Of a stretch of DNA of 43,257 nucleotides, positions 5,070 to 20,675 are shown piece after piece. The stretch's first letter is position 1. Each line of letters opens with the position of its first letter. This DNA comes from Candidatus Woesearchaeota archaeon (GTDB taxonomy: Archaea; Nanobdellota; Nanobdellia; SCGC-AAA011-G17; PNOQ01). Location: NCBI GenBank assembly GCA_043812195.1, contig JBDRML010000015.1:1-43257 (forward strand), written 5' to 3'. Under the pieces are notes generated by a model. The model had not been told where the DNA came from, searched no databases, and saw nothing but the letters and a program-made list of their open reading frames with translations. The position numbers and the translations under genes were made by a program.

Positions 5070-5074
5070 TTTTT

Positions 5075-5410: not shown

Positions 5411-5479
5411 AGTTGAATTATATGTTTTCGAAAAGGATCTAACAGGGTGAAACTATATGCTCCCTAGTGAATCCTACAG

Positions 5480-6064: not shown

Positions 6065-6110
6065 TAAGTTGGTGGTGTCCTCCCATTTTGGTAAATGTGA
6101 ATTTCATTAG

Positions 6111-6340
6111 TAGGGACTCCATAATACTCATTATTACTCATATACAACTTTTTCCGGTTGGTCTTCTTATATATCCCTCCAATCCAAAAATGAGTAATAT
6201 GAGTAATAATGAAGAATAGGGGACTCCTATTGATATTATTAATAATTTTACTAAAAATTTTAATACTCATAATACTCATATTACTAACTATCTTTTTAGA
6301 TATTAATTCATTTTGAAAAAGAATAATATGTGTAATAATT
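6111..6340. repeat. Iteron-like cluster, putative replication origin of the element
   Basis: TACTCAT at 6125, 6135, 6264, 6273; inverted ATGAGTA at 6190, 6199; AT-rich spacer; directly downstream of the SF3 helicase gene. Confidence 0.7.
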
Positions 6341-6348
6341 TTCATATT

Positions 6349-7908: not shown

Positions 7909-8093
7909 TTTCTAGTCTCCGTTCTAAAATCAATAGTAGTATCTTCTATACTGAGAATATATTTTTTATTTATTGAGTGTATCTTATTACCAGTCTTAAA
8001 GGTAATCCAATCTTGATCTTCACGTAAAATTAAACCAAATAGAACTTTTACTTCATTATTGATAGTATCAATTTTAATTTTTTTACATTTCAT
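7905..8093 (-). CDS. Small Sm/Hfq-like beta-rich protein (tentative)
   Basis: VLFGLILREDQDWITFKTGNKIHSINKKYILSIE follows the Sm1/Sm2 pattern; coupled to the helicase gene. Confidence 0.45.
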   Translation of the reverse strand: MKCKKIKIDTINNEVKVLFGLILREDQDWITFKTGNKIHSINKKYILSIEDTTIDFRTETRK

Positions 8094-8175
8094 TTTATAT
8101 TTCTCTCTACATTTATTTTAATCTTTCAACCTAGAACTTAAATCTTGAATCTTATCTAAAATTAATAATCACATC

Positions 8176-8197
8176 TGCTTTTTAAAATTATTTATTA
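8176..8197 (-). repeat. 22-bp inverted repeat, right copy; promoter-like for the replication operon
   Basis: TGCTTTTTAAAATTATTTATTA is the exact reverse complement of 3615..3636. Confidence 0.85.
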
Positions 8198-8334
8198 AGA
8201 TCTTATGAGAAAATACAAACCCATGAAGATTTCGGTAGTTATGCTTGTGTATAAGCAATAAAGAAGAAGCTTTAAAGAAATATGATAGCTTAAAATAAAA
8301 ATCACTAGATTGATATTTTTAGGTACTATATGTC

Positions 8335-8396
8335 AAATCGCAACCTTTTTAAGACTTAATATTTCCTTAAAAATCATAGATTTAAGGTTTAATATG
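8335..8396 (+). promoter_or_regulatory. Repeated promoter/leader, copy 1
   Basis: CTTTTTAAGACTTAA-N16-ATAGATTTAAGGTTTAA then ATG; both blocks and the spacing recur at 10647..10709. Confidence 0.7.
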
Positions 8397-8801
8397 TCAA
8401 GAAGACACAAATATAAGCAACACAAAAGTAGAAGTGGAAGTTTGTTAAGAAATAGAACTTTAATCAGAACAATCTTGATTATTATTTGTTTGGTTTTATT
8501 AAGTATTTTTTTGATTACATTTAACACGAATATCTTTATTGCTCTAGCATTTGTAGGACTTATTCTATTTATTTATTGGGAAAGTACATTAACACTAGAA
8601 GAAAAGAGAAGGAGAGCTGAGAAACAAGCCAAACAAAGAGAAGAAAGAGAGCATTACAAAAGAGTTGAGAAAGAGGCTTATATTTCTGGAAGAGCTCAAG
8701 AAAGAGGTAGAATGAGAGCTGAGAGAGATGAAGTTCAAAGAAAAGCAGAAGTGGAATACCAAAAAAAACTTAGGAAAAAAATGTTTGGGGGTTGGAGATG
8801 A
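8394..8801 (+). CDS. Two-TM membrane protein with charged coiled-coil tail
   Basis: Start moved to ATG 8394 after the repeated leader; two hydrophobic helices then an E/R/K-rich tail. Confidence 0.65.
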   Translation: MSRRHKYKQHKSRSGSLLRNRTLIRTILIIICLVLLSIFLITFNTNIFIALAFVGLILFIYWESTLTLEEKRRRAEKQAKQREEREHYKRVEKEAYISGRAQERGRMRAERDEVQRKAEVEYQKKLRKKMFGGWR

Positions 8802-9043
8802 ATAAAACATATTTATTCTTAGGAATTGTGATTGTGCTTATTGTTCTTGGTGGGTTTGGAATGGTGGGCGTAATAGGTTATTTATTAGGGGTATTTGCAG
8901 TTATATACATTCTTTATTGGATTTTTTTAAGACCTGTAGTAAAACATAAGGGTTGGGAATGCGAATTCTGTTCAAGAAAGTTTTCAACAGAAGTGGGAGC
9001 AGAAAAACACGAAAAGAAATGTAGTAAGAGGAAGAAGAAATGA
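8798..9043 (+). CDS. Two-TM membrane protein with C-terminal C2HC Zn finger
   Basis: Hydrophobic hairpin, then WECEFCSRKFSTEVGAEKHEKKC. Confidence 0.7.
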   Translation: MNKTYLFLGIVIVLIVLGGFGMVGVIGYLLGVFAVIYILYWIFLRPVVKHKGWECEFCSRKFSTEVGAEKHEKKCSKRKKK

Positions 9044-9459
9044 ATAAAACACTATTAATTGGTATAATCCTATTAGCAGTTGTTATTTCTGGTTGTGATT
9101 ATGAAAGCACAGATTATACAAAAGGAAACTTAGACGGAGATACAAACACAAACACTATATTGGAAGAAACAAGTTTAGAAATAATCAACCACGAACTTAA
9201 AAGCGAAACAACTTATTCAATAAAAACTTGGTTTGTTGAAGGGACAGCCAAGAATACAGGCACAACAACCATAGAAATGGCTACAATTAAAGTAAGGTTC
9301 TTTGATGAAGACGGAACTTTAATTGAAAACGGGTTTGATGTAGTTTCTGATTTAGACCCAGATATGACTTTTAAGTTTAAAGTTTCTTTTATGGGAGATA
9401 TTATGGCTGAAGATAAACCAGCTGATTATGATATCGCTATTGAAGGATTGGATTATTAA
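9040..9459 (+). CDS. Lipoprotein with FxLYD-type Ig-like domain
   Basis: Lipobox VISGC; VEGTAKNTG...IKVRFFDEDG...DLDPDMTFKFKV. Confidence 0.7.
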   Translation: MNKTLLIGIILLAVVISGCDYESTDYTKGNLDGDTNTNTILEETSLEIINHELKSETTYSIKTWFVEGTAKNTGTTTIEMATIKVRFFDEDGTLIENGFDVVSDLDPDMTFKFKVSFMGDIMAEDKPADYDIAIEGLDY

Positions 9460-9467
9460 GGTTTAAG

Positions 9468-10421
9468 ATGTCAAAAACTGAAAAGGAAGGAATTGGATTT
9501 TTCTTAGGATTATTTATAGTCACGCTATTTGTTAGCTCACTTTTTAGTCTTGGACTTTCCATTTCGACCTTTGAAAATGTTGGTTATTCAGGTTTAGGTG
9601 AAGCTATCGGAACTTCTATTTTATTTTTTTTAGCAGGGTTATTTATGTATAGAATAAAACCTTATGCTGTAGAATTCACAAAAATAGTTTTGAGTGTTGT
9701 TCTTGTTGAAAATGTTATTTTACTAATATTTTTCCCAAGTGAGATTACTACTTTGTCTTCATTACCTTATTATATAATTTGGCTTTTCTTCCTTCAATAT
9801 TCCAAAAATGTTGAAAGGGTGTATGGACATCTAAAAGAAAAGAAAGAAGGAACTCAAATTTGGCCTATTTTAGCTATAGTCTTTTCATTTACAGCATTTG
9901 TTCACGCTTTTGTGTTTGGTATTATTGCTTTGAAAAGAATATCAAAGAATAGAAAATTAAAAGGTATGGGTATTGCTGTAATTGGAATAATAATTTCAGT
10001 AATAGTTTTAATTATGATAATGTTATTGGGGGCTTTTGAAGGTTTTACTGAAGAATTAGATAATATTGAAGAAGCGTCTCTTGAAGGAGAAATGGTATGT
10101 AATGATTTTTGTCTTGGTGTCGAGGGAACAGAAACCTATTTAGCTTATGTAAATTTAGATAAAACAATCTGTGAATGTTATGATAGTCAAGAAAATACAT
10201 TAGAATCAATAGAGTTTTCAGAGTCGGATATCGAATCAAGATATGAAGAGATTGTAAATGAATTAACAGGATATACTTGTGAGTATAACGCATATAATTG
10301 CGCCGATTTCTCAACTCACGATGAGGCACAAGCACTATTTGAAGTGTGTGGTGGAATATTTAACGATGTTCATTATTTAGACGGCGATGATGACGGAATA
10401 GCTTGCGAGAGTTTACCTTAA
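9468..10421 (+). CDS. Polytopic membrane protein (DUF4190-like hairpin) with C-terminal Excalibur Ca-binding domain
   Basis: About 6 TM helices; FGIIALKRI...KGMGIAVIGIII; [13 protein letters not shown]...LDGDDDGIACESLP. Confidence 0.75.
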   Translation: MSKTEKEGIGFFLGLFIVTLFVSSLFSLGLSISTFENVGYSGLGEAIGTSILFFLAGLFMYRIKPYAVEFTKIVLSVVLVENVILLIFFPSEITTLSSLPYYIIWLFFLQYSKNVERVYGHLKEKKEGTQIWPILAIVFSFTAFVHAFVFGIIALKRISKNRKLKGMGIAVIGIIISVIVLIMIMLLGAFEGFTEELDNIEEASLEGEMVCNDFCLGVEGTETYLAYVNLDKTICECYDSQENTLESIEFSESDIESRYEEIVNELTGYTCEYNAYNCADFSTHDEAQALFEVCGGIFNDVHYLDGDDDGIACESLP

Positions 10422-10423
10422 AA

Positions 10424-10648
10424 ATGGACGAATTCATATTTTGGCTTATCTTTATTGCTTTAATAGTTATTATTGGAAATCAAACACGAGAACGTCAAGA
10501 AAGAGAAACAAAAGGTATGACTAAAAAACAAAAAGCAAAATATTTTAATGAGATTAAAAAACAGCAAAAAGAGGAATGGGGAAAGGTTTTAGGGTGGATA
10601 ATACTTATTGTGCTCATTTTGATTAGTTTGTTTATTGGTTTGACTTAA
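10424..10648 (+). CDS. Small two-TM membrane protein
   Basis: Likely start MDEFIFWL; hydrophobic ends around a charged loop. Confidence 0.6.
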   Translation: MDEFIFWLIFIALIVIIGNQTRERQERETKGMTKKQKAKYFNEIKKQQKEEWGKVLGWIILIVLILISLFIGLT

Positions 10649-10709
10649 ATCACAAGCTTTTTAAGACTTAACTTTTCACAAATGTTTATAGATTTAAGGT
10701 TTAAGAATG
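10647..10709 (+). promoter_or_regulatory. Repeated promoter/leader, copy 2
   Basis: Same 15-bp and 17-bp blocks as 8335..8396. Confidence 0.7.
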
Positions 10710-10973
10710 GCTGAAACAATAAAAATAAACAATTGGTTTAAATCTCTTATTTTTTTCTTAGGATATCCAATACACGCTTCAATCTTTATGTTATTTGCTT
10801 TAGGAAAAATGGGAGACGATTTAGACAATCCTAAAGAAGAATATCATACTTTTGAGCCCTGGGTTAAAAATGTTGTAATTAAACAAAGTATTGACAAGAT
10901 TAAATACACTTTAGGATTGATAACTTTTGGCCTTATAGTTTTGTTAATACTTGGGTTTTTGTTGAGTTGGTGA
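10707..10973 (+). CDS. Small two-TM membrane protein
   Basis: Two hydrophobic segments; follows the repeated leader. Confidence 0.6.
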   Translation: MAETIKINNWFKSLIFFLGYPIHASIFMLFALGKMGDDLDNPKEEYHTFEPWVKNVVIKQSIDKIKYTLGLITFGLIVLLILGFLLSW

Positions 10974-10980
10974 ACTAAAA

Positions 10981-11106
10981 ATGAATATACAAGATATAGT
11001 AATATTTTTACTACCTTCAAACCCTGTGGATTTGTTAGTAAAGATATTAATTATATGGATAATAGTGCATATAATAAGAAAGAATTGGAAGAGGAAGAAA
11101 AAATGA
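10981..11106 (+). CDS. Small membrane peptide with basic tail (41 aa; not in ORF track)
   Basis: MNIQDIVIFLLPSNPVDLLVKILIIWIIVHIIRKNWKRKKK. Confidence 0.5.
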   Translation: MNIQDIVIFLLPSNPVDLLVKILIIWIIVHIIRKNWKRKKK

Positions 11107-11152
11107 GCAACATAATAGATTTAGTAATAATTCTAAATCATTTATAAACACC

Positions 11153-11259
11153 TAACCCTAATTCCTTTAAATTTATACGTTCTGAGAAACAACATCCAAT
11201 AACCCACTACATTAATCAACGAAATAGACCAATCTATGAACAAAAGAAAGCTTTTTATA
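11153..11259 (+). repeat. About 107-bp non-coding direct repeat, copy 1, ending in BRE/TATA
   Basis: Shares TAACCCTAA, a 21-bp identical core AATTTATACGTTCTGAGAAAC, CATCCAATAA and CAAAAGAAA-(A)-GCTTTTTATA with 19069..19174. Confidence 0.8.
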
Positions 11260-11280
11260 TTTATCAATTAAATTTGATGT

Positions 11281-11877
11281 ATGGATAGAGTGTTTGCATT
11301 ATCTTTGGTTGTATTTTTCTTAATTTTTATTAATGGATGTTCTGAATCTGAATTTGTTGATAAACCAGATAAATTATACAAAGATATTTCTTGGGAATAT
11401 GATAAATATCCTCAATTTACTTTTGGAGTTCAGGAAAGCGTGAGTCCAATAAAATTAGATTTAGTAGATGCTGTTATAGTTAAAAGAGATGCAACTTATT
11501 ATGGGATAGATAATGCTATGAGAATTGGTGCTCCTTGTTCTGCTACGCCAGATAAAATAGATTTTTGTATGAATGCTAAGAAAGCATCGGATATTTTTGG
11601 GAATAAGGAAGCTACTCTTTATGTAGCAATAAATATAGAATGGAATATTGATTTATCTGAAGAAGGAGAACCAATAGAAAACTTAATAGCAGAAACAAAT
11701 GCTAAAAAAATATACAAATTTGATACTTCCATACCACAAACAGATGAAGATGGGTTTGTAGATGATATGGATTTAGTAGATGATACTTGGTGCTGGATTT
11801 GGACTGATGCATGGGAATATGGTGCTAATAAACCAAAATGTGAAGAGTATATATCAACTCTCAAAACAAATTATTAA
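11281..11877 (+). CDS. Acidic lipoprotein, function unknown
   Basis: Lipobox FINGC; Cys/Trp-containing extracellular domain. Confidence 0.65.
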   Translation: MDRVFALSLVVFFLIFINGCSESEFVDKPDKLYKDISWEYDKYPQFTFGVQESVSPIKLDLVDAVIVKRDATYYGIDNAMRIGAPCSATPDKIDFCMNAKKASDIFGNKEATLYVAINIEWNIDLSEEGEPIENLIAETNAKKIYKFDTSIPQTDEDGFVDDMDLVDDTWCWIWTDAWEYGANKPKCEEYISTLKTNY

Positions 11878-11937
11878 ATAATAATCAAAAGAAATCAACT
11901 GGAAATAAAAATAAATCTACATAAGCTATATAATAAA

Positions 11938-13158
11938 TTAACCTTCTATCATCTCAAAATTGTTAAACATTAATAGTTGGCTTTCATATATTTTAAAATA
12001 ATATTGTTCAAGTAATATACTGTAATCGTTAACCCAACTATTGTATTCATAAATTAAATCATTATATTGATTAACATAAAATTGAGAATATTGCCAATCA
12101 AATATTCTAGTTATTTTTGCCAAATCTTCATCAATTTCACCAAGTTTTTCATATATTCTATCTAGTTCTAATCCAATCTCATCAATTTCTAAATATTTAT
12201 TTTCTAAATTATTTGCTAAATCAACTCCATACTTGTTTTCATAATATGTTTTACCATCGCTAAATTTATGATATTCTTGATTTGTTAGTTCCCCTTCTGA
12301 ACCAATTGGAGTAAATTGTGTAGTTTCGACAAAACAAATTTGTTTAGAATTATACTCAAAATTACCTTCTTCACAAGCAATACCCATTAATGCATGAGGT
12401 AAATTTTCAGAATCTCCAAAAATCAAATATGTTTCGAAACCTAAATTTTTTGCGATATTTATTAGAATTACTGTTTTATCTAAACAATTTCCATTTTCTT
12501 CATAAAGAGTTTCATATGGATACTTGTTTGACCAATCGTCACCCAAATCATAAGGTATCGCTTGAACAAAAATTGTAGCTATTTCTAAAATTTCATGGTC
12601 AGAATAGCCAGCATCTCTCAATTTAATAAAATCTCTAGAAATAAAATCAACAAAATTATTATTATACGGATCATCAAAATACCTGCTTTCATAATAATTA
12701 TCACCATAATAACAATCTTGGTTTTTTAACTTAGAAGAAAATTCATATAAATCATTAAACAATCTAATTATATAAGAAAACTCATAATTTTCGTAATTAA
12801 ATCTATATTTTGGCTCAAAATAATTAGTAAAATTTATATCCGTATATTTTGATTCACAATAATCTAAATATCCATCATCATCATATCCTGGAATTAATTC
12901 TAATTCATTAATTTCTGGTGAAAGTCTAACGTCTGCTCCGATTGCATAATCAAAGGAATAATATTTGGGGGAATAGTATATCCTAGTCATCCTATCATAA
13001 TATTCTTCAAATGATTCAATTTCTCTTTCAGAATAAACTAAATCACTTGTAGTAAAATTATAAATATCATCAGGGTTTGTTCCACTATAAATATCACAGC
13101 CACCAATAAATAAACTAATAGAAATAATTAAAATCATCCAAACTGCTTCTTTTTTCAT
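11938..13158 (-). CDS. Lipoprotein with transglutaminase-like (papain-fold) domain and C-terminal coiled coil
   Basis: Lipobox FIGGC; FVQAIPY...YPYETLYEENGNCLDK, HALMGI, FVETT (Cys-His-Glu triad). Confidence 0.75.
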   Translation of the reverse strand: MKKEAVWMILIISISLFIGGCDIYSGTNPDDIYNFTTSDLVYSEREIESFEEYYDRMTRIYYSPKYYSFDYAIGADVRLSPEINELELIPGYDDDGYLDYCESKYTDINFTNYFEPKYRFNYENYEFSYIIRLFNDLYEFSSKLKNQDCYYGDNYYESRYFDDPYNNNFVDFISRDFIKLRDAGYSDHEILEIATIFVQAIPYDLGDDWSNKYPYETLYEENGNCLDKTVILINIAKNLGFETYLIFGDSENLPHALMGIACEEGNFEYNSKQICFVETTQFTPIGSEGELTNQEYHKFSDGKTYYENKYGVDLANNLENKYLEIDEIGLELDRIYEKLGEIDEDLAKITRIFDWQYSQFYVNQYNDLIYEYNSWVNDYSILLEQYYFKIYESQLLMFNNFEMIEG

Positions 13159-13254
13159 AATTTATTTTAGAATTATATATATTTAAATTTAACCACTAAG
13201 CAATTCAATTTTGATTCAAAAGAAAGATTTTTATATTTTTTGGGTGGTAATTAT

Positions 13255-14826
13255 TTAGGTGGTACCTAACATTGACTTTGACAGTTTTGTTAGTTCTCCA
13301 TCTCCATTACAAACTAATGCATATGGAAGGCTAATTCCTTGAGTAGTATCTATTCTAATAGCATAAATAACAATTGGAAATATTTTTTCAACATATGTGC
13401 TCATTCCTTCTCTACCAAATTGTACATCATAAGTTTGAAGACCAAAAATCATACTACCTCTCCATATGTTAAAATACTCTTCTGCATCGGAATCATTATT
13501 AAATTCTTCTTTATCTAAGATTTTTATTTGATGATTATTTTTTAATTCAAATATTCTTATAGCGTCATCTATAGAATTATCACATTTATCCATTAATATT
13601 TCTTCTTGAATATCTTGATTTTTGTCGTCTATAAATGTTTCATAATCTGGCCTATATTCTTTATCTCCAGAATCTTCTTGTATTTCTTCTACTATTTTAA
13701 TTTCTTTTACTTCAAGATAGTATCTTCCATTGTATACTCTACTGTCATCTCTTAAATAAGCAGTAATTTTAACATTTTTGCCTAAATATGTATTATCTGC
13801 ATCTGTAAGTATATTTGCTATAATTTCTTCTCTATCTTTTTGAGTTAAACAAATATTATAATTTTTTATGTTATCAATATTACATTCTGTTAAAACCCCT
13901 GTAGTCTTAATAAATTTATTTATATATGATTCAACATTTCTTATTATTTCTATAAGTTCTTTTTCTTGAGGGATAGTTGATGAAATGATTGCAATGATGC
14001 TAAATATCACTAAAGTTGTTATAATAATTGGCACAATTGGGCTTAATTTTTTCTTTTTTGGTGAATAATTATGAGTTTGTTTTTTCCTCTTTACTATTTC
14101 CTCTTTCCTCTTTTTACTTTTATTGCTCTTTTCAATTTTAGGGTGATATGAATTATGTTTATAATTTGGTTGATAATTTTGTTCTTCTTGTAACCTTTGA
14201 TGTTTGGAACCTAATAAAGATTTAAGAGCTTCGCCATATTTAGCTTCTTGTTTTTCCTCCTTTTCTATTATTTTATTTTGATATACTAAACAAGGGTGAC
14301 CTTTTATATCTGTTAAGTTATTAAAATCTGCTAGTTTTGGTTCAATAGCTTTTTTATGTTTTTTGCAATATAATTTTTTGCAATATTTACATTTATATTT
14401 TCCAATTTCTTTACATGAATGATAATAGCATTCATTCTTTTTGATCCTTCTTTTTAAATTCTTTATATTTTTTGATTTTTCAGTAATATGAACTGTTCCT
14501 GCTGGAGGAGACCACATAGTTCTTTTTACACTTGCGTGTGTAGTGTGGAAATTTGGATCATGTGACCGATTAATCAAATGTGTTGTTTCATGTGAAGCAG
14601 TTTCTTCTATTTTATCAAAACTCATATTTTTAAGAATTTTCTTAGATATACAAATCAGGTTTTGTTCTATGTGGATGTGCGCTATTTCTTCTTCATTAAA
14701 TGGGCATTCTGTATCCCAAAATTTAACCGCAGGCACCCTGACGCCCAATAATCTTGCAGTTTCCTTTACTACAGCTAAAAATCGCTTTTCTTTTAGTTTA
14801 TAAAATGAATTCTGATGGGTCTTCAT
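13255..14826 (-). CDS. Membrane-anchored protein: SprT/WLM/YgjP-like metallopeptidase, AN1-like Zn finger, one TM and an extracellular domain
   Basis: ASHETTHLINRSHDPNFH; CYYHSC...CKYCKKLYCKKH...H; TM IVPIIITTLVIFSIIAIIS; start likely MKTHQ. Confidence 0.7.
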   Translation of the reverse strand: MKTHQNSFYKLKEKRFLAVVKETARLLGVRVPAVKFWDTECPFNEEEIAHIHIEQNLICISKKILKNMSFDKIEETASHETTHLINRSHDPNFHTTHASVKRTMWSPPAGTVHITEKSKNIKNLKRRIKKNECYYHSCKEIGKYKCKYCKKLYCKKHKKAIEPKLADFNNLTDIKGHPCLVYQNKIIEKEEKQEAKYGEALKSLLGSKHQRLQEEQNYQPNYKHNSYHPKIEKSNKSKKRKEEIVKRKKQTHNYSPKKKKLSPIVPIIITTLVIFSIIAIISSTIPQEKELIEIIRNVESYINKFIKTTGVLTECNIDNIKNYNICLTQKDREEIIANILTDADNTYLGKNVKITAYLRDDSRVYNGRYYLEVKEIKIVEEIQEDSGDKEYRPDYETFIDDKNQDIQEEILMDKCDNSIDDAIRIFELKNNHQIKILDKEEFNNDSDAEEYFNIWRGSMIFGLQTYDVQFGREGMSTYVEKIFPIVIYAIRIDTTQGISLPYALVCNGDGELTKLSKSMLGTT

Positions 14827-14980
14827 TTTAAAAATAAATGAATAAAAACACATAAAAATCTTTCTAAATGTTGCACGGAATAGGATAATAGTGTAAGATA
14901 GAAAATTCTTATCACGGACAAGGTTTTGGTTATGTTGAGCAATAAATCAAACCAAATTAAGATTGTTTAAAGATAGTCGT

Positions 14981-15172
14981 TCATTTTTTAACCAAAAGTC
15001 TTGCTAAGTTTATACTTCCCCACAATATAAGCACATAAATCAAGTATCTAAAAAAATTAACAATCGCTATTGAAAACCCACCAAGAGCTAATCCCATACC
15101 CATTATTAAAAGCATTATTCCAACAATCCCCATAAATATTCTATTTAATGTATCTTGCTTTTTCTTAGCTAT
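14981..15172 (-). CDS. Two-TM membrane protein (63 aa) with apparent ATA start; not in ORF track
   Basis: (I)AKKKQDTLNRIFMGIVGIMLLIMGMGLALGGFSIAIVNFFRYLIYVLILWGSINLARLLVKK; GAGGTG 7 nt upstream. Confidence 0.45.
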   Translation of the reverse strand: MAKKKQDTLNRIFMGIVGIMLLIMGMGLALGGFSIAIVNFFRYLIYVLILWGSINLARLLVKK

Positions 15173-15479
15173 TTTCTTTCACCTCACAATAATCTTCATC
15201 ATCATCATCATACGTAAAAACACATTTACAATAAGCAATTTTGTCTTCTAATCTTGGTTTATCTTCTAAAGTTCTATATATTCTACAAGTAGTATCTGAT
15301 ATTGGTTCTCCATCTATAATTACACTACTTTTTGCACACCAATATTTACAATCATTTTCTAATTGATTTAACTCACTTTCACTAACTTTAGTAATTTCTA
15401 CAATCACAAAGAAAATGAGTATAACTAAAAATATCCCTATAGCAATATGTGGTATCTTTGATTTTTTCTTTTTAGGCAT
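15165..15479 (-). CDS. Single-TM protein with Cys-rich extracellular domain
   Basis: Basic N-terminus, TM helix, CKYWC...C...CKC...C. Confidence 0.6.
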   Translation of the reverse strand: MPKKKKSKIPHIAIGIFLVILIFFVIVEITKVSESELNQLENDCKYWCAKSSVIIDGEPISDTTCRIYRTLEDKPRLEDKIAYCKCVFTYDDDDEDYCEVKENS

Positions 15480-15480
15480 T

Positions 15481-15591
15481 TTATTTCTCTTTCTTCAACT
15501 TCTTTCTTTTATATCCATGTGACATCCATCCAATACTTTCATCTTTTCTTTGTTTGACTTTCCTGTCTAAATAATTCTTTCTTTTAGCCAT
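15481..15591 (-). CDS. Small basic peptide (36 aa; not in ORF track)
   Basis: MAKRKNYLDRKVKQRKDESIGWMSHGYKRKKLKKEK; 1-nt gaps to both neighbours. Confidence 0.5.
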   Translation of the reverse strand: MAKRKNYLDRKVKQRKDESIGWMSHGYKRKKLKKEK

Positions 15592-15592
15592 T

Positions 15593-15724
15593 TTAACTCT
15601 CCTTATCCTTAAACTTACCACAAACTTCGCACTTCATAGATTGTCTAAACTTACCATTTCCAATGTTAATATATCCTCCTATCTTAATCCACTTATGTCC
15701 TTTAAATAAACATTTAATTCCCAT
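15593..15724 (-). CDS. Small DUF1660-like Zn-binding protein (43 aa; not in ORF track)
   Basis: MGIKCLFKGHKW...MKCEVCGK (CxxxGHxW...CxxCG). Confidence 0.6.
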   Translation of the reverse strand: MGIKCLFKGHKWIKIGGYINIGNGKFRQSMKCEVCGKFKDKES

Positions 15725-15726
15725 CT

Positions 15727-16029
15727 TTAAGGTAAGCTTTCACAAGCTACTCCATCTCCATCTCCATCTAAATAGTGAACATCATATCCGCACTTTTCAA
15801 GCATAACTTGGGCTTGGGCTTGTGTAGAAAAATCAGCACAATTGTATTTGTTGTAAGAACAATCTGAGTCTACTGCTCTTTTTTCTTTGTAATACCCATC
15901 ATAATTATCTTCATATAAACTTCTCTCATATCTACTTTCCATCATTTCACTTGAAATGAACATAGAAATTATAAAATAAAATGCTAAAATTCCCATAATC
16001 CAACCCCACCAACTTCCTTTCTTATTCAT
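15727..16029 (-). CDS. Membrane-anchored Excalibur Ca-binding domain protein
   Basis: N-terminal TM; [13 protein letters not shown]...[14 protein letters not shown]. Confidence 0.8.
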
Positions 16030-16421
16030 TTTTTCGCCTTCTCAATAACTTCTTTAGCGAGATTTTTAATTTCTTTATCAAGCACTTTCTTCTGTTCATT
16101 TTTATCCAATTTTTGAAAAGCTAATCTTTTATCATATTCAACAAATGTGTTTCTAAGCATAGCTTCTTGTTCGTCTAACTTATCTTGTTTCTTTGGTTCT
16201 AAAAAACCACATATAATAAAAATAACCCCCAAAGAATACAATAACAATATGAATGGTTCATAAATTTCAGACATAACACAACTTTGAACTTCATATGAAG
16301 TTGCAGGGTCAATACCATAAGAACTTTGGCAAGGTATATTGTAAAATTTATCAATAGTTGAAAAACTACTGCCAGCTATTATAAAAAAGATTCCCAAAAT
16401 AAACCATTGTTTTCTATTCAT
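16026..16421 (-). CDS. Two-TM membrane protein with cytoplasmic helical tail
   Basis: Two hydrophobic helices around a loop with 2 Cys; coupled to neighbours. Confidence 0.65.
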
Positions 16422-18143
16422 TTATTTCTCCTTCTTTCCTTTCTTATTCACCCTACAATAATCTTCTCTCATTACAGAAGGTCTAACTAATTTTAATGCA
16501 CCTTTGAAATCTTCATCTGTGATTTTTAATTTGTCTAATGTTTCTTTTGGTATTGTTTGATTATCTTTTAATTTAATCTCTAGAAGTTTTCTTCTGATAG
16601 CATTCATAGTTGCTTCTTTTGCTAGTAATTGTAAGTCTGCTCCAACAAACCCTTGTGTATTTTTTGCTAGTTCTTCTAGGTCTACTGATTTTGTCAAAGG
16701 CATGTTTTTTGTGTGGATTTTTAATATATCTAACCTTCCTTTCTTATCTGGAACATAAAACACTATTTCTCTATCAAATCTTCCTGGTCTTCTTAATTCA
16801 GGATCTAATGAGTTTGGTTTGTTTGTTGCTCCAATAACTACAACCCCTGCTCTTTTGTTTAGACCATCCATCATAGCTAATAATTGTGCTACTACTCTTT
16901 TTTCTACTTCACCATATGTTTCTTTTCTTTTTGATGCTATTACATCTATTTGATCTATGAAAATAATAGAAGGCGCTTTTTCAGTTGCTTCTTCAAATAT
17001 TTTTCTTATTCTTTTTTCAGATTCTCCGTAAAATTTATTCATAATTTCTGGACTATTGACTAAAATGAAATTAGCTTCTGATTCATTTGCTACTGCTTCA
17101 GCTAATAGAGTCTTACCTGTTCCAGGTGGACCGTGTAATAAAACCCCTTTAATAGTTTTACTTCCTAATTTTTGGAATATTTCTGGGTGTGTTAATGGTA
17201 ATTCTACCATTTCTCTTATTTTTTTAATTTCATCATCTAACCCACCTACATCTTCGTAAGTTACATCTAGAAGTAATTCGTCTTCTGTTATCTGCATTGC
17301 TTTTGGACTTACTTTTATTTCTGTGTTTTCTGTTATGATTATTGGTATTCCTACTGGTTTAGTTTTTATTACCTTAAATTTTAAGTCTCCAATTGACCCT
17401 GTAAACTCTTGTGCAAAAGTTTCAAATATGTCATTAAATGGAGTTCCTGAGCATGTGGATTTTCTTCTTTTTTTATCATTTAAAGCAACTATGTCTCCTT
17501 TAACTATAACTCTTCCTAAAAGACCTTTTGTGAATACACTTGGGTCTGCTTGAATCATGATACCTTGCTGTGAAGGTGCTACTGTGATTTTTTTAGCTTC
17601 TTTGACCTGTGCTTTATTCACATTTACGATGGAACCTATCTCAGTTAAAGAGTTTCTTCTTAAAATATTATCCATCCTAATTGTTTGTTCTTTTTCATCT
17701 GACGGATATGCTCTGTCTACAATTCCAACGGTTTTTCTTCCACCTTCTATTTTAACTATATCTCCTGCTCTAACATCTATTTCTTTCATAAATTTAGATG
17801 ATATTCTAACAATACCTGTATTATTTTCTTCTGGTGCTGAATCTTTGACTTTCAAAGCTACACATCTTGGTGATTTTTTATTGTGGGTTTCAAAGAAATC
17901 TTTTGTTGCTTTTGTTTCGATTGGTTTGTAATCTTTTCCTAATGTTTTATCAAGATATTCCTTTTTACATTTCTTTTCGTGTTTTAGAGTCTCTTTTTCA
18001 GTATCAAATACTTTATCACAAAATTCGCACATTTTCCCTTGTTTTTCTTTGAACTCTTTTTCGTGTTTTTCAGCTTCGTGTTTTTCAGCTTCTTTTTTTG
18101 TATCAAATCCTTTATCACAATATTCACATTCCCAATTTGCCAT
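16422..18143 (-). CDS. Zn-finger-fused truncated Cdc48/VAT (N domain + D1 only) with Walker B E->Q
   Basis: Two CxxC...H fingers; Cdc48 N domain (IRMDNILRRN); VTYEDVGGL, ELPLTHPEIF, GPPGTGKT, IIFIDQID, RRPGRFDREI; ends just after ALKLVRPSVMRE. Confidence 0.9.
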   Translation of the reverse strand: MANWECEYCDKGFDTKKEAEKHEAEKHEKEFKEKQGKMCEFCDKVFDTEKETLKHEKKCKKEYLDKTLGKDYKPIETKATKDFFETHNKKSPRCVALKVKDSAPEENNTGIVRISSKFMKEIDVRAGDIVKIEGGRKTVGIVDRAYPSDEKEQTIRMDNILRRNSLTEIGSIVNVNKAQVKEAKKITVAPSQQGIMIQADPSVFTKGLLGRVIVKGDIVALNDKKRRKSTCSGTPFNDIFETFAQEFTGSIGDLKFKVIKTKPVGIPIIITENTEIKVSPKAMQITEDELLLDVTYEDVGGLDDEIKKIREMVELPLTHPEIFQKLGSKTIKGVLLHGPPGTGKTLLAEAVANESEANFILVNSPEIMNKFYGESEKRIRKIFEEATEKAPSIIFIDQIDVIASKRKETYGEVEKRVVAQLLAMMDGLNKRAGVVVIGATNKPNSLDPELRRPGRFDREIVFYVPDKKGRLDILKIHTKNMPLTKSVDLEELAKNTQGFVGADLQLLAKEATMNAIRRKLLEIKLKDNQTIPKETLDKLKITDEDFKGALKLVRPSVMREDYCRVNKKGKKEK

Positions 18144-18144
18144 C

Positions 18145-18309
18145 TCATTTCATCTCCCTTATAACCAATTCACCCCTTTCATTCAAAACAATAGAAACCT
18201 CATCTTTAGGTTTCCAACCTTTCAATTGAGCTATTTGTTTAGGAACAACTACAGCTAATGAGTTTCCTATTCTTTGTATTTTTCTGGTTAGTTCAATTTT
18301 TCCTTTCAT
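18145..18309 (-). CDS. AbrB/MazE/SpoVT-family DNA-binding protein (54 aa; not in ORF track)
   Basis: MKGKIELTRKIQRIGNSLAVVVPKQIAQLKGWKPKDEVSIVLNERGELVIREMK; stop 1 nt before the Cdc48-like start. Confidence 0.8.
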   Translation of the reverse strand: MKGKIELTRKIQRIGNSLAVVVPKQIAQLKGWKPKDEVSIVLNERGELVIREMK

Positions 18310-18311
18310 TT

Positions 18312-18938
18312 TTAATTTCCTGTAATCTTAAGTTCATTTTTATGAAAAAATGTTGGGGTTGATTCTTTTTTCCCAATGTTTATTTTGTACCCGTAAACAG
18401 TAATTTCCCCATTAAATTTATTTTCTCCATTAACTTTTCCATTTACTCTAATTTTTTTAATCCCTTTTAAAGATTTTACAACGTTTAATTTATAATCAAA
18501 ATTTTGTTTACTACCAAAATTTCCAGTAACAAAAGAAATTGTACTAATTGATTGCCCTATCCAAGCTGGAAGTGTAATTAGGTAAGATTCCCATTCTTTA
18601 ACAGTTGGTTCTAAGATTTTTACCCTTTTTAATTTTTTAATGTCAGATAAAACTCTTTTTAATTCATTAATCTTATCTTTATTCTCTTTTTTCCATTCTT
18701 TGTTTAATTCAGGAACTTCTCCAAGATGTTTTTCATAATTTATAACATTTTTTTTAATTATGCTTTTTTTATCTTCATTTAATCTTTTAAAATCTAACCC
18801 TTCCTCATTCATATATTTTTTTAAAAAATTATCTCCATCTGGTTTAATTAAATTTCGCATACATTGATTACATACTTTTTTTCTCTGTATACGAGTAAAA
18901 AAACCTAATTTCTTTTTACAATGTTCACAAACTTCCAT
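18312..18938 (-). CDS. Protein with N-terminal Zn ribbon; first gene of the leftward cargo operon
   Basis: CEHCKKKLGFF...VCNQC; TATA-like sequence about 30 nt upstream. Confidence 0.6.
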   Translation of the reverse strand: MEVCEHCKKKLGFFTRIQRKKVCNQCMRNLIKPDGDNFLKKYMNEEGLDFKRLNEDKKSIIKKNVINYEKHLGEVPELNKEWKKENKDKINELKRVLSDIKKLKRVKILEPTVKEWESYLITLPAWIGQSISTISFVTGNFGSKQNFDYKLNVVKSLKGIKKIRVNGKVNGENKFNGEITVYGYKINIGKKESTPTFFHKNELKITGN

Positions 18939-19068
18939 TTTTAGCCACTAATAGTACTAACAGAAATATTTATATATTTAATGAATTCCCTTATTATAAC
19001 AGAATTAATTCAAGGACAACGAATTATTATGTTAGTCTCTCCTGAGGCTTATATAAATAGTGAACATT

Positions 19069-19174
19069 TAACCCTAAATTCATTAGAATTTATACGTTCT
19101 GAGAAACCCCATCCAATAATGTAGATTAAACAATGAAATATTCTAATCTATAATCAAAAGAAAAGCTTTTTATA
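19069..19174 (+). repeat. About 106-bp non-coding direct repeat, copy 2
   Basis: Homologous to 11153..11259; identical core at 19087..19107. Confidence 0.8.
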
Positions 19175-19181
19175 CCTCAAA

Positions 19182-19574
19182 ATGGGCTTAAAATTAGTAA
19201 AAATGGCTAAAAAAACACTAAAAATAGTAGTAATTATGGTTTTAGTAGTTTTAGCTATGTCCATATTTATTATAAATTTCACAGAGGAAAAAGGAAACCT
19301 AAAAGTTATACAAGAAGATAAAATGGAAGAAAAAATTATAGCAGGAGATAGAGTCCCTATAACTATAGGAAAAGGTAATACTGACAAAGGCCGTGTAGAA
19401 CCAACATCGGAAGAAGATAGAATTAAAGAACTATTAGAATCTATGGGCTATCAAACTGAATTACCTAGCATACCTAATAATTATGAAAATTCAATTACAA
19501 ATAATGAAGAAGACAATACTTTTGAATTTGATATAGAATATTGGAAAAAAAGATTATTAGAAGTAGATATATAA
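19182..19574 (+). CDS. Hypothetical protein (start uncertain: 19182, 19203 or 19257)
   Basis: ORF downstream of the repeat-borne promoter; MSIFIINFTEEKG segment is duplicated at 20042. Confidence 0.5.
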   Translation: MGLKLVKMAKKTLKIVVIMVLVVLAMSIFIINFTEEKGNLKVIQEDKMEEKIIAGDRVPITIGKGNTDKGRVEPTSEEDRIKELLESMGYQTELPSIPNNYENSITNNEEDNTFEFDIEYWKKRLLEVDI

Positions 19575-19664
19575 AAAGAGGAGAAAAATGACAAATATAG
19601 ATGATATAATAGAAAGTACATGTATTGGAGTACTAACAGACTTTTTATGAGATTTTGAGCCAAA

Positions 19665-20000
19665 TTATATATTTCGTTTTAGATATTCTTTGACCGGGGC
19701 AGCAACTGTTTTTTCATTGATATTTTTGGTTATACAATATTTAGTTCTAAACCAATCTGATAGCTTCTTTATACCTCTACTTGAATTACAGCTACCACAA
19801 CAAATAGTTATATCTTGTATTTTCATTCCATCTTTCCAGTAAAATGGTCCGTCAAATTTCAAATGTTCAATAGTTGCAGAATCTTTTTGGTTGTCTCTAG
19901 TGTAGGGGTCAATCATTGTTTTATGACAATATACACATTTCTTATCTCTTGCACGGATTTTTAGCAATTCTTGATCAGGGATTCCAAAATTATTACTCAT
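19665..20000 (-). CDS. HNH endonuclease
   Basis: RARDKKCVYC...ATIEHL...ICCGSCNSSRG. Confidence 0.8.
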   Translation of the reverse strand: MSNNFGIPDQELLKIRARDKKCVYCHKTMIDPYTRDNQKDSATIEHLKFDGPFYWKDGMKIQDITICCGSCNSSRGIKKLSDWFRTKYCITKNINEKTVAAPVKEYLKRNI

Positions 20001-20041
20001 ACAATTTTATTATTGTATGAGATTTATAAATCTTCTTATCT

Positions 20042-20200
20042 ATGTCAATATTTATTATAAATTTTACAGAGGAAAAAGGAGAATTAAAAGTTTTATATGA
20101 AGAAGAAAAGAAGAAGAAAAGAAAATTAACAGGAGTAACCCCTAGATTTTCAAGAACTCAAGACTTTAGTAAGCAAGTATCACAAATGTTAGGTATATAA
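20042..20200 (+). CDS. Short paralog or fragment of the 19182 ORF (52 aa; not in ORF track)
   Basis: MSIFIINFTEEKGELKV...; DNA 20040..20080 is near-identical to 19255..19295. Confidence 0.4.
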   Translation: MSIFIINFTEEKGELKVLYEEEKKKKRKLTGVTPRFSRTQDFSKQVSQMLGI

Positions 20201-20215
20201 TCATTTACTCTGTGT

Positions 20216-20245
20216 GGTAGTGGAGTTTTAGTATTCTCCACTACC
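20216..20245. terminator. GC-rich hairpin between convergent ORFs (possible terminator or binding site)
   Basis: Perfect 10-bp stem GGTAGTGGAG / CTCCACTACC with 10-nt loop. Confidence 0.5.
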
Positions 20246-20487
20246 TAGATAAAAACACTAAGAACTAATTGTTTCTCTTTGGAAAGTTCTTCACCATTTA
20301 TTTTATAATACCCCTTATACTCAAAATTAGATTCATCATACTTAAAAAAACAATCATCACTTTTTTTTCTATACACCATTTTACATATTTTACATCTGTA
20401 TATTCCTCTATCAAAAACAGAATCCCATTCTGCGAATACATTTCTACCTTTACAACATTCTATATTAGGATTTGAATCAAACTTCAT
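20245..20487 (-). CDS. Small Cys-rich hypothetical protein
   Basis: ECC...YRCKIC; TATA-like sequence about 25 nt upstream. Confidence 0.5.
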   Translation of the reverse strand: MKFDSNPNIECCKGRNVFAEWDSVFDRGIYRCKICKMVYRKKSDDCFFKYDESNFEYKGYYKINGEELSKEKQLVLSVFI

Positions 20488-20675
20488 AGAAGTGAAATCA
20501 GGCTCTAATTTTTAAAATTATTGCTGACTAAACACTATTGTTTTGTTTGTATAGCAAAATGGAACGATTTATATATTTAATTATTTATCATTCTTATTAA
20601 CAAATAATTTAATGGAGGCATAAAACTATAGTATATTAGTTAATAAAAATGAAAGTTTTTATTTAAAACTTTCTC

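What the first reader, a model, noticed from the sequence alone, without database searches (positions are those of the whole stretch)
16422..18309. Natural trap-type Cdc48 (N-D1 only, Walker B E->Q, Zn-finger fusion) behind an AbrB/MazE gene
Seen: Walker B reads IIFIDQID (CAA at 16950-16952) while Walker A, the KFYG pore loop and the RPGR fingers are intact; the protein stops just after the D1-D2 linker, gains two N-terminal Zn fingers, and starts 1 nt after an unannotated AbrB/MazE gene. Known: E->Q in Walker B is the standard mutation that allows ATP binding but blocks hydrolysis, and N-D1 is sufficient for p97 hexamerisation. Inference: an element-encoded dominant-negative or retargeting subunit for host Cdc48, possibly a new toxin-antitoxin, abortive-defence or host-manipulation system.
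Basis: partly seen in the sequence, partly recalled or inferred. Interest (0 to 1): 0.85.

Follow-up and report, generated by a model that had tools for sequence, protein, structure and literature searches.

The report
Element-borne dead-ATPase half-copy of host Cdc48
A mobile element inserted in a tiny archaeal genome carries a shortened copy of its host's Cdc48 unfolding machine that can probably bind ATP but not burn it, and similar shortened "dead" copies turn up independently in other archaea, so this looks like a recurring natural way of blocking or redirecting that machine.

Summary
ORF 16422-18143(-) encodes 573 aa: two C2H2-like fingers, the Cdc48 N domain and one AAA module (D1). Its Walker B reads DQ (CAA 16950-16952), and it starts 1 nt after a 54-aa AbrB/MazE gene.

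- **Location.** It lies in a ~17-kb insertion carrying an integrase and a D5-like primase-helicase, between AlaRS and TFIIE.
- **Origin.** The gene is a captured copy of the host lineage's own cdc48 (76% aa). It is cut at the D1-D2 linker and evolves 3-4x faster in dN.
- **Selection.** It remains under selection: branch dN/dS ~0.4-0.7, and the frame would not stay open under neutral change.
- **Walker B.** E is present in 120 of 120 relatives.
- **Recurrence.** Motif scans found independent N-D1-only, DQ-bearing Cdc48 paralogues elsewhere. One Asgard-related pair has dN/dS 0.08-0.19.
- **AbrB.** It is an element cassette, 91% identical in a second element that has no Cdc48. That argues against a dedicated antitoxin.
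- **Host operon.** Host cdc48 is itself preceded by a Zn-ribbon-AbrB gene (104 of 110 cases).

Best reading: a selection-maintained, ATP-locked N-D1 ring-former that interferes with or decoys host Cdc48. The mechanism is inferred, not shown. The CAA codon could not be checked in reads.

The parts
3600..20650 (.). Approximate extent of the integrated mobile element (~17 kb)
   Evidence: AlaRS (1804-3570 -) and TFIIE (21736-22254 +) are 18.2 kb apart here. They are 1.05-1.4 kb apart in 14 of the 20 family genomes that hold both genes on one contig, and 1.8-5.4 kb apart in the other 6. The gene that lies between them in relatives matches window 21040-21447. No att repeat was found, so the ends are approximate.
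3668..4930 (+). Tyrosine integrase (420 aa)
   Evidence: PF00589 2.5e-26; phrog_1 integrase 4.8e-36
6349..7908 (-). D5-like primase-helicase (519 aa)
   Evidence: DUF5906 1.6e-15, D5_N 3.4e-06, phrog_864 DNA primase 5.6e-51. Found in 0 of 24 other family genomes.
8792..9043 (+). 83-aa ORF: membrane helix plus a C2HC finger paralogous to the fingers of the Cdc48-like gene
   Evidence: 57% identity over 21 aa, E 4e-08
18936..18998 (-). TATA-box promoter region of the operon, shared with the second element
   Evidence: 80% nt identity to L022 7617-7680
18312..18938 (-). First operon gene, 208 aa, N-terminal Zn-ribbon pattern, no family match
18145..18309 (-). AbrB/MazE/SpoVT-fold gene (54 aa), an element cassette
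   Evidence: PF04014 41.5 bits. A 91% aa / 86% nt copy lies in the second element on contig C45. Found in 0 of 150 other order genomes.
16422..18143 (-). ZnF-ZnF-N-D1 Cdc48 paralogue (573 aa), no D2
17967..18128 (-). Two C2H2/C2HC-type zinc-finger patterns (residues 6-27 and 39-59)
   Evidence: Pattern read. Pfam scores are below cut-off. A paralogue lies in the same element.
17298..17855 (-). Cdc48 N domain (CDC48_N + CDC48_2, residues 97-282)
16563..17144 (-). D1 AAA module and lid (residues 334-527)
   Evidence: motifs
16950..16952 (-). Walker B codon 398, CAA (Gln) where relatives have Glu
16026..16421 (-). 131-aa membrane protein. Its ATG directly abuts the stop of the Cdc48-like gene.
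15727..16029 (-). 100-aa Excalibur-domain protein, overlapping the previous gene by 4 nt
   Evidence: PF05901 1.8e-09
13255..14853 (-). 532-aa ORF with an HExxH motif; weak SprT-like match; same strand
   Evidence: E 0.0026, below cut-off
19665..20000 (-). HNH endonuclease-like gene (111 aa)
   Evidence: phrog_2214 5.6e-06

Best explanation
A ~17-kb integrated element of a small (0.94 Mb) DPANN-type archaeon captured the 5' two-thirds of its host lineage's cdc48. The captured piece runs from the start codon region to the first residues of the D1-D2 linker. It is fused to two element-type zinc fingers and sits in an element operon.

The product keeps the parts needed for ATP binding and ring formation: Walker A, sensor 1 and the arginine fingers. 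It also keeps the aromatic D1 pore loop. It has lost the catalytic glutamate (E398Q), the D2 motor and the C-terminal tail.

I read it as a selection-maintained, ATP-locked N-D1 ring-former that competes with the host's Cdc48. It could do so in two ways: by co-assembling with host subunits through D1 and poisoning the ring, or by forming its own ring that holds Cdc48 substrates or partners without unfolding them. The fingers add a new target.

The AbrB gene upstream is most likely the operon's DNA-binding regulator, not a cognate antitoxin.

Shown: identity, origin, truncation point, E->Q, element context, selection, and recurrence of the architecture. Inferred: ATP-locked state, ring formation, interference with host Cdc48, and the roles of the fingers and of AbrB.
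For: **Origin.**
- The protein is 76% identical to host Cdc48 over residues 85-562.
- It falls inside the clade of the host, P0002 and P0003 (supports 0.947 and 0.993).

**Changed constraint.**
- 22 of 173 near-invariant columns are changed, against a median of 1 and a maximum of 6 in 120 controls.
- dN on its branch is 0.118-0.124, against 0.030-0.037 on the host branch.

**Still selected.**
- Pairwise dN/dS is 0.26 (NG86) or 0.07 (ML).
- Branch dN/dS is 0.40-0.67, against 0.09-0.13 for the host.
- Under simulated neutral change the frame stays open in 2 of 5000 runs at 10% substitutions and 0 of 5000 at 15-20%. Observed nucleotide difference is 20%.
- No recently converted tract was seen.

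**Motifs.**
- Walker A, pore loop, sensor 1 and Arg fingers are kept. Only the Walker B glutamate is lost.

**Recurrence.**
- Four complete N-D1-only proteins with DQ were found in metagenome contigs: L078, L079, L084 and L076. They sit at three or more separate places in the tree.
- L079 is 62-67% identical to 119 Asgard Cdc48 of 735-742 aa, all of which have DE.
- L078 and L079 are 67% identical to each other with dN/dS 0.19 (NG86) or 0.08 (ML).
- These proteins recur on 9, 5 and 3 contigs.

**Host and operon context.**
- The host has 20S proteasome alpha and beta genes.
- The operon is tightly packed, with 1-nt and 0-nt gene gaps.

**Background.**
- A Walker B E->Q (with D->N) Cdc48-like protein binds nucleotide, does not hydrolyse it and forms hexameric rings (PMC6017811, passages).
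Against: - Selection is clearly relaxed. Branch dN/dS of 0.4-0.7 is compatible with a gene that was useful and has recently become neutral.
- The protein is a singleton. No closer relative exists among 5.8 billion clustered proteins: the next hit is a 761-aa full-length Cdc48 at 78%. No other protein shares its finger region. It was absent from IMG/VR.
- My search for other DQ proteins looked for Q only, so the recurrence is ascertained on Q.
- A close relative of L084 (P0246) has DH at that position.
- One D1-DQ hit (L081) is a pseudogene with two in-frame stops, and two hits (L085, L086) are truncated fragments. DQ therefore also occurs in decaying copies.
- CAA was not confirmed in reads.
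- No assembly, binding or expression evidence exists.
Confidence: 0.5

Rival explanations
1. The protein serves the element itself, with no interplay with host Cdc48. It would be a nucleotide-bound N-D1 ring used as a scaffold or holdase. The zinc fingers would aim it at element DNA, RNA or proteins, for example in replication, partition or particle or membrane assembly.
For: - The fingers are an element-native module. A paralogue lies in ORF 8792-9043.
- The order-invariant N-terminal motif of the N domain is replaced (positions 101-115 among the 22 changed columns). This suggests altered partner binding.
- The gene is embedded in an operon with membrane and secreted-type proteins.
- N-D1-only DQ paralogues in L079 and L084 lie in ordinary chromosomal surroundings. 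Such proteins therefore need not be weapons.
Against: - At 76% identity to host D1, with intact ring-forming motifs, mixing with host subunits is hard to avoid (inference).
- No nucleic-acid or assembly function is known for Cdc48 N-D1.
Confidence: 0.25
2. The gene is a decaying captured fragment. A piece of host cdc48 was picked up by the element, happens still to be open, and E->Q is one of many drift changes.
For: - dN is 3-4x faster than the host's, and 22 invariant positions are changed.
- It is a singleton with no close homologue of the same architecture.
- DQ is also seen in a pseudogene (L081) and in fragments (L085, L086).
- L084's relative has DH rather than DQ.
Against: - An open frame of 573 codons at 20% nucleotide divergence is not expected under neutrality (0 of 5000 runs).
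- dN/dS is below 1.
- All indels are in frame.
- The catalytic-site neighbours are kept or conservatively replaced (R->K three times).
- Both ends of the captured piece fall on domain boundaries, and translational coupling is tight.
- The same architecture is kept under purifying selection in L078/L079.
Confidence: 0.15
3. The pair is a toxin-antitoxin or abortive-infection module. The trap-type Cdc48 would be the toxin and the AbrB protein its antitoxin.
For: - The AbrB/MazE-fold gene lies directly upstream with a 1-nt gap.
- It weakly matches the TIGR02609 'putative addiction module antidote' model (33.3 bits, cut-off 55.9).
- A Walker B trap of an essential unfoldase would plausibly be toxic (inference).
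Against: - The same AbrB gene (91% aa) sits in the second element behind the same promoter. There it is followed by a 72-aa membrane ORF and no Cdc48.
- The ORF lists of L076, L079 and L084 show no small same-strand ORF directly upstream of the gene. Of their neighbours only 10 were scanned with Pfam, and none matched AbrB.
- No PADLOC match beyond generic AAA similarity.
Confidence: 0.08

Closest known systems
Archaeal Cdc48/VAT (e.g. PDB 5g4f) and the host's own Cdc48 (G000 contig C31)
   Same: N domain, D1 module and aromatic D1 pore loop. 76% identity to the host N-D1, and E 9.9e-195 to VAT.
   Different: No D2 and no C-terminal tail. Walker B is DQ. An 84-residue two-finger N-terminal extension is added. 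It scores below the NCBIfam CDC48 cut-off (545.6 vs 802.65 bits). The host gene also carries a LAGLIDADG intein in D2.
Laboratory p97/Cdc48 N-D1 truncations and Walker B E->Q 'trap' mutants
   Same: Same truncation point (end of D1 plus the first linker residues) and the same catalytic substitution. Walker B variants bind nucleotide without hydrolysis and form rings (PMC6017811, passages). Work on p97 N-D1 with the linker and on dominant-negative uncoupled p97 was seen only as search listings and abstract starts (PMC4730245, PMC6637110).
   Different: This one is natural, element-borne, fused to zinc fingers and diverging under selection. Its biochemical behaviour is untested.
N-D1-only, DQ-bearing Cdc48 paralogues in metagenome contigs (L078, L079 = KKN45546.1, L084, L076)
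   Same: CDC48_N (+CDC48_2) plus a single AAA plus lid. Walker A is kept, Walker B is DQ, and the protein ends at the D1 lid or linker.
   Different: They arose independently, at 36-43% identity to this protein. They have no zinc fingers. The pore loop and Arg fingers are partly degenerate. L079 and L084 lie in chromosomal-looking surroundings.
[quoted passage not shown] 2014, PMC4158269)
   Same: A Cdc48-family ATPase carried by archaeal mobile elements (table row seen as a passage).
   Different: The paper's row gives no architecture or Walker B state. I could not test whether those proteins are N-D1-only or catalytically dead. Supplements were not seen.
AAA+ proteins with a naturally degenerate ring
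   Same: One ring serves binding or assembly rather than hydrolysis. Cpa D1 shows 'mild degeneration of the motifs' (PMC6017811, passage). PEX1/PEX6 D1 and NSF D2 are recalled, not seen here.
   Different: Those proteins keep a second, active ring. This protein has none.
AbrB/MazE/SpoVT-fold regulators and antitoxins (PF04014; TIGR02609)
   Same: The 54-aa upstream gene passes the Pfam cut-off.
   Different: It is below the TIGR02609 cut-off. No known toxin partner is present. The cassette recurs with a different downstream gene.

Membership tests
CDC48/VCP/p97 family (type II AAA+, TIGR01243) | Cdc48-type N domain (double-psi barrel + beta-clam: CDC48_N, CDC48_2) | tested here: met
   68.9 and 35.9 bits, both over cut-off
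CDC48/VCP/p97 family (type II AAA+, TIGR01243) | D1 AAA module with Walker A, sensor 1 and arginine fingers | tested here: met
   PF00004 155.1 bits; motifs
CDC48/VCP/p97 family (type II AAA+, TIGR01243) | Catalytic glutamate in Walker B (hhhhDE) | tested here: not met
   Q398 (CAA). E is present in 120 of 120 relatives.
CDC48/VCP/p97 family (type II AAA+, TIGR01243) | Second AAA module (D2) and C-terminal tail | tested here: not met
   One AAA hit only. The alignment ends at VAT residue 459. No D2 match elsewhere on the contig.
CDC48/VCP/p97 family (type II AAA+, TIGR01243) | Score over the curated family cut-off | tested here: not met
   545.6 bits vs 802.65, model positions 2-447 of 733
CDC48/VCP/p97 family (type II AAA+, TIGR01243) | Descent from within the Cdc48 clade | tested here: met
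   Nested with the host, P0002 and P0003
AbrB/MazE/SpoVT fold (PF04014) | Profile match over cut-off | tested here: met
   41.5 bits vs 24.7
Type II toxin-antitoxin pair | Antitoxin gene directly upstream of, and coupled to, the toxin gene | tested here: met
   1-nt gap
Type II toxin-antitoxin pair | The two genes travel together | tested here: not met
   The AbrB cassette occurs without Cdc48 in the second element. The AbrB gene is in 0 of 150 other order genomes.
Type II toxin-antitoxin pair | Direct binding of antitoxin to toxin; toxicity relieved by antitoxin | not testable with these tools
Needs bench work.
Integrated mobile element (tyrosine-integrase type) | Integrase and replication genes; insertion relative to related genomes | tested here: met
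Integrated mobile element (tyrosine-integrase type) | Flanking direct repeats (att) | tested here: inconclusive
   Only 10-nt chance-level matches were found
C2H2 zinc finger | C-x2-C-x12-H-x3-5-H(C) spacing; profile match | tested here: inconclusive
   Spacing is present twice. Pfam scores of 21.5-22.7 bits are below the cut-offs of 25.2-27.

The most novel reading that the evidence does not exclude
Archaea and their mobile elements have repeatedly evolved 'natural Walker-B traps'. These are D2-less, ATP-binding but hydrolysis-dead N-D1 paralogues of Cdc48 that act as built-in or element-delivered inhibitors or holding rings of the Cdc48-proteasome system.

In this DPANN element the trap is made from the host's own gene and re-aimed by zinc fingers to take over or shield against host protein quality control.

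The host's conserved Zn-ribbon-AbrB gene upstream of cdc48 would then be an undescribed Cdc48 partner or regulator. The element's combination of AbrB and a finger-fused N-D1 would echo that pair.
Probability: 0.3. Interest if true: 0.8.

Novelty: new variant of a known kind. Interest (0 to 1): 0.62.

Why it matters
E->Q in Walker B and N-D1 truncation are the standard laboratory tricks for freezing p97/Cdc48. Here both occur together in nature, on a mobile element, in a copy of the host's own gene. Similar forms occur independently in other archaea.

If the mechanism holds, three things follow:
- It would be a natural inhibitor, or substrate-holding form, of an essential and universal unfoldase.
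- It would be a new kind of host-manipulation gene for elements of DPANN archaea, whose biology is almost unknown.
- It would be a ready-made, evolution-tuned tool for trapping archaeal Cdc48 substrates.

The side finding matters too. A Zn-ribbon-AbrB gene sits directly upstream of cdc48 in 104 of 110 strong matches from 151 genomes of the order searched. That points to an unstudied partner or regulator of archaeal Cdc48.

Tried and rejected
**Reads.** The look-up of sequencing runs listed no run and no RNA holder, so CAA was not checked and read laying was not used.

No binding test of AbrB with the finger/N-domain part was made.
The Q-unbiased census of N-D1-only proteins could not be made.

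**Structure.** Single-sequence prediction of the 573-aa protein gave pLDDT 36.7 and was discarded. No fold search was run.

**att sites.** Repeat search and exact-word search found nothing convincing.

**IMG/VR.**
- No relative of the protein was found.
- One D5-like relative (L013, 43%) carries neither the Cdc48-like nor the AbrB gene.
- A profile of N-D1 sequences found 59 loci, mostly giant-virus MAGs. They match only the AAA part, and all 56 Walker B motifs are DE.
- A 24-nt DQ motif scan gave 31 loci, none AAA-like (DnaB-type helicases and short frames).

**Genome searches.**
- Order-level search (151 genomes): no second N-D1-only copy among the 150 listed rows; 216 rows were unlisted. 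G024 has a cdc48 split into two overlapping frames beside a transposase. I did not count it as N-D1-only.
- Class of Methanohalophilus (151 genomes): all 150 listed rows lie in 722-839-aa frames; 376 rows were unlisted.

**Idea rejected: AbrB was co-captured with cdc48 from the host operon.**
- The element AbrB and the host Zn-ribbon-AbrB share only fold-level similarity (BLASTP 38% over 21 aa; hhalign probability 59%).
- The element AbrB has its own near-identical copy in the other element.

**Idea rejected: recent gene conversion with the host copy.** No 30-codon window exceeds 91% nucleotide identity.

**Literature** (CC-licensed PMC plus bioRxiv only).
- No paper linking AbrB and Cdc48 as neighbours: one search gave 5 papers, and I read passages of two.
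- None on natural N-D1-only or Walker-B-dead Cdc48 paralogues. I read passages of PMC4453063, which was irrelevant.
- Supplements were closed and may hold arCOG01308 details.
Full report
**What is there.**

ORF 16422-18143 on the minus strand encodes 573 aa.
- Pfam finds CDC48_N, CDC48_2, one AAA module and one AAA lid, all over cut-off.
- The best solved relative is the archaeal Cdc48 homologue VAT (5g4f, E 9.9e-195). The alignment covers only VAT's N-D1 (query 95-563 to VAT 7-459).
- Walker B reads IIFIDQID, with CAA at 16952-16950.
- Walker A, the KFYG pore loop, sensor 1 and RRPGRFDRE are intact.
- Residues 1-84 hold two C2H2/C2HC spacing patterns. Their Pfam scores fall just below cut-off.
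- A 54-aa AbrB/MazE-fold gene (PF04014, 41.5 bits) ends 1 nt before the ATG.
- The next gene's ATG abuts the stop codon.

**Where it sits.**

The genome (G000) is 0.94 Mb in 45 contigs, and its Cdc48 relatives are named Woesearchaeota or Nanoarchaeota by their sources.
- The window carries a tyrosine integrase (3668-4930), a D5-like primase-helicase (6349-7908), an HNH gene and many ORFs without family.
- The primase-helicase is found in 0 of 24 other genomes of the family.
- AlaRS and TFIIE flank this stretch. They are 1.05-1.4 kb apart in 14 of the 20 family genomes that have both on one contig, and 1.8-5.4 kb apart in the other 6. Here they are 18.2 kb apart.
- The single gene between them in relatives matches window 21040-21447.

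So about 17 kb (roughly 3.6-20.6 kb) is an insertion, and the Cdc48-like gene lies inside it. No att repeat was found.

**Where it came from.**

The host has a full-length cdc48 on contig C31. It encodes 1255 aa and includes a LAGLIDADG intein in D2.
- The element protein is 76% identical to the host's N-D1.
- It falls in a tree inside the small clade of the host, P0002 and P0003 (supports 0.947 and 0.993; same clade).
- Homology starts at about the host's start codon and ends at ...VRPSVMRE, the first residues of the D1-D2 linker. A 13-residue basic tail follows.
- The finger region has no counterpart in the host gene. It does have a paralogue in the same element: an 83-aa ORF at 8792-9043 with a membrane helix and one finger.

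The gene is thus a capture of host-lineage cdc48, trimmed to N-D1 and fused to an element module.

**Is it alive or decaying?**

Signs of changed or relaxed constraint:
- Against the host plus 119 database relatives, the Walker B column is E in 120 and Q only here.
- 22 of 173 near-invariant columns are changed, against a median of 1 and a maximum of 6 in the 120 controls.
- The changes cluster at the N-terminal motif of the N domain. They include several conservative R->K swaps in D1.
- Three-point estimates with three outgroups put dN at 0.118-0.124 on the element branch and 0.030-0.037 on the host branch.

Signs of continuing selection:
- Pairwise dN/dS to the host is 0.26 (NG86) or 0.07 (ML).
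- On the element branch it is about 0.40-0.67, against 0.09-0.13 for the host. These are rough, because dS is partly saturated.
- Starting from the host sequence, neutral substitution keeps the frame open in 94, 11, 2, 0 and 0 of 5000 runs at 5, 8, 10, 15 and 20% changed sites. The observed difference is 20%.
- No stretch looks recently converted.

I read this as relaxed or redirected but real selection. A late switch to neutrality cannot be excluded.

**Are there others like it?**

Close relatives: none.
- The other 119 listed hits of the whole protein are full-length (749-807 aa).
- Nothing else shares the finger region.
- 150 other genomes of the order show no second N-D1-only copy among the listed rows.
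- IMG/VR has none.

Motif scans for a Gln in Walker B gave the main new result.
- In one genome per species (genome contigs), 21 of 22 hits are two-module Cdc48-like proteins with DQ in D2. They come from Dehalococcoidia, Actinomycetes, Acidobacteria, Rhodospirillales and one Methanohalophilus.
- In metagenome contigs, the D1-type motif gave 11 loci:
  - Four complete proteins are N domain plus a single AAA plus lid, with DQ: L078 (445 aa), L079 (443 aa), L084 (450 aa) and L076 (769 aa, with two N domains).
  - One partial (L082) ends after the lid.
  - One is a full-length D2-DQ protein (L080).
  - One is a pseudogene with two in-frame stops and D1-DQ (L081).
  - Two are truncated fragments (L085, L086).
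  - Two are other AAA clades (L077; L083 is MIT plus AAA).

Independent origin and selection of these proteins:
- L079 is 62-67% identical over its whole length to 119 Asgard Cdc48 of 735-742 aa. All of these have DE in D1.
- In a tree the N-D1-only DQ proteins sit at three or more separate places, each on a long branch.
- L078 and L079 are sisters, 67% identical, with dN/dS 0.19 (NG86) or 0.08 (ML). That truncated, DQ-bearing lineage has therefore been kept by selection.
- These proteins recur on 9, 5 and 3 contigs.
- All keep Walker A. All end at the D1 lid or linker. The older ones have degenerate pore loops and Arg fingers.

Caveats:
- The scans asked for Q only.
- A >=90% relative of L084 (P0246) has DH at this position, so the common feature may be 'not acidic' rather than Q.
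- DQ also occurs in decaying copies (L081, L085, L086).
- The ESM Atlas lists clusters of ~450-aa archaeal proteins with CDC48_N and one AAA (132 and 53 members). I could not see their Walker B.

**The AbrB gene.**

It is not tied to the Cdc48-like gene.
- A second element in the same genome (contig C45) has its own integrase, a D5-like gene at 29-30% identity, a resolvase and an HNH gene. It carries the same AbrB gene (91% aa, 86% nt over 178 nt) behind the same TATA-box promoter (80% over 64 nt).
- That element has a different first gene and a 72-aa membrane ORF downstream. It has no Cdc48.
- The AbrB gene is in 0 of 150 other order genomes.
- No defence or toxin family matches the operon beyond generic AAA similarity.

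This favours a promoter-plus-regulator cassette over a dedicated antitoxin.

**An unexpected echo in the host.**

Host cdc48 is preceded, 4 nt upstream, by a 116-aa gene with a Zn-ribbon and an AbrB-like C-terminal half (weak PF04014 hits).
- A profile of five such genes finds it in 122 of 151 genomes of the order.
- 104 of the 110 strong matches lie directly upstream of the Cdc48 N-D1 match on the same strand. The script counted 102. G032 and G127 were confirmed from the ORF lists.
- The element AbrB resembles it only at fold level.

Host and element thus both combine a zinc module, an AbrB fold and a Cdc48 N-D1, in different order. I found no paper on this gene pair. That AbrB's swapped-hairpin barrel and the double-psi barrel of VAT-N are held to be evolutionarily related is recalled (Coles et al.), not read here. 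only listed papers holding those words.

**How it most likely works.**

Established knowledge:
- The Walker B glutamate is the catalytic base.
- E->Q variants bind ATP without hydrolysing it and still form rings (PMC6017811, passages).
- That N-D1 suffices for p97 hexamers, and that archaeal Cdc48 docks on the 20S through its C-terminus, is recalled.

The host has 20S alpha and beta genes.

Inference: the element protein forms ATP-locked rings. At 76% identity in D1 it probably also enters host rings. In either case it lacks the D2 motor and the tail, so it can hold but not process. The fingers give it an extra target.

I give this 0.5. A self-contained element function gets 0.25, decay 0.15 and a toxin-antitoxin pair 0.08.

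**Comparison and novelty.**

Cdc48-family ATPases on archaeal viruses and plasmids are on record (arCOG01308, PMC4158269, table row seen). Degenerate rings in two-ring AAA+ proteins are known. A natural single-ring N-D1 with the 'trap' substitution, made from the host's own gene and recurring in other archaea, was not found in the papers I could search. I rate it a new variant of a known kind, with interest 0.62.

Noticed in passing
G000 contig C31 (L007 5923-6273 -) and 121 other genomes of the order: A ~116-aa Zn-ribbon + AbrB-like gene lies directly upstream of cdc48 on the same strand in 104 of 110 strong matches, and 122 of 151 genomes have the gene. This is a conserved two-gene unit, and I found no paper on it.
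   Followed up: partly
L007 2151-5918 (-), host cdc48: Host Cdc48 (1255 aa) carries an intein with a LAGLIDADG domain in D2 just after the pore loop. Many orthologues in the order lie in open frames of 1200-2600 aa, which suggests inteins at several sites, including D1.
   Followed up: partly
L054-L075 (genome contigs): 21 of 22 motif hits are two-module Cdc48-like proteins with a natural Walker B DQ in D2. The flanking sequence is identical within the Dehalococcoidia hits and within the Actinomycetes hits. One archaeal case is Methanohalophilus sp. RSK. The Cpa paper describes strictly conserved D2 motifs, so these differ from typical Cpa.
   Followed up: partly
G000 contig C45 (L022 about 6600-19500): A second integrated-element-like region in the same genome carries an integrase, a D5-like gene, a serine recombinase, an HNH gene and a PD-(D/E)XK-like ORF. 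It shares only the promoter and the AbrB cassette with the window's element (86% and 80% nt).
   Followed up: partly
L083 (metagenome contig, partial): An MIT-domain + AAA protein (Vps4/CdvC-like) has a natural Walker B DQ.
   Followed up: no
L081 1607-3664 (+): A Cdc48 copy with D1 DQ and a D2 module, interrupted by two in-frame stop codons. It is apparently a pseudogene.
   Followed up: partly
L076 1148-3454 (-): A 769-aa protein with two CDC48_N matches, CDC48_2, one AAA with DQ and a lid: a doubled N domain on a dead single ring. It is seen on 5 contigs.
   Followed up: partly
window 19251-19335 and 20036-20120: An 85-nt direct repeat (81% identity) duplicates the 5' end of two plus-strand ORFs (19182-19574 and 20042-20200).
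   Followed up: no
window 11242, 13218, 19157, 21686: Four copies of an 18-nt motif of the form AAAAGAAAGCTTTTTATA. It looks like a BRE/TATA promoter, and one copy lies just upstream of ORF 19182-19574.
   Followed up: no
window 9468-10421 (+) and 15727-16029 (-): Two Excalibur calcium-binding-domain proteins lie in the element, along with a 532-aa HExxH ORF (13255-14853) that has a weak SprT-like match.
   Followed up: no
L010 (G024 contig C3) 1633-4249: cdc48 is split into two overlapping frames (544 + 336 aa) within the D1 lid, next to IS630-like transposase ORFs. This is either a frameshift or an assembly error.
   Followed up: no
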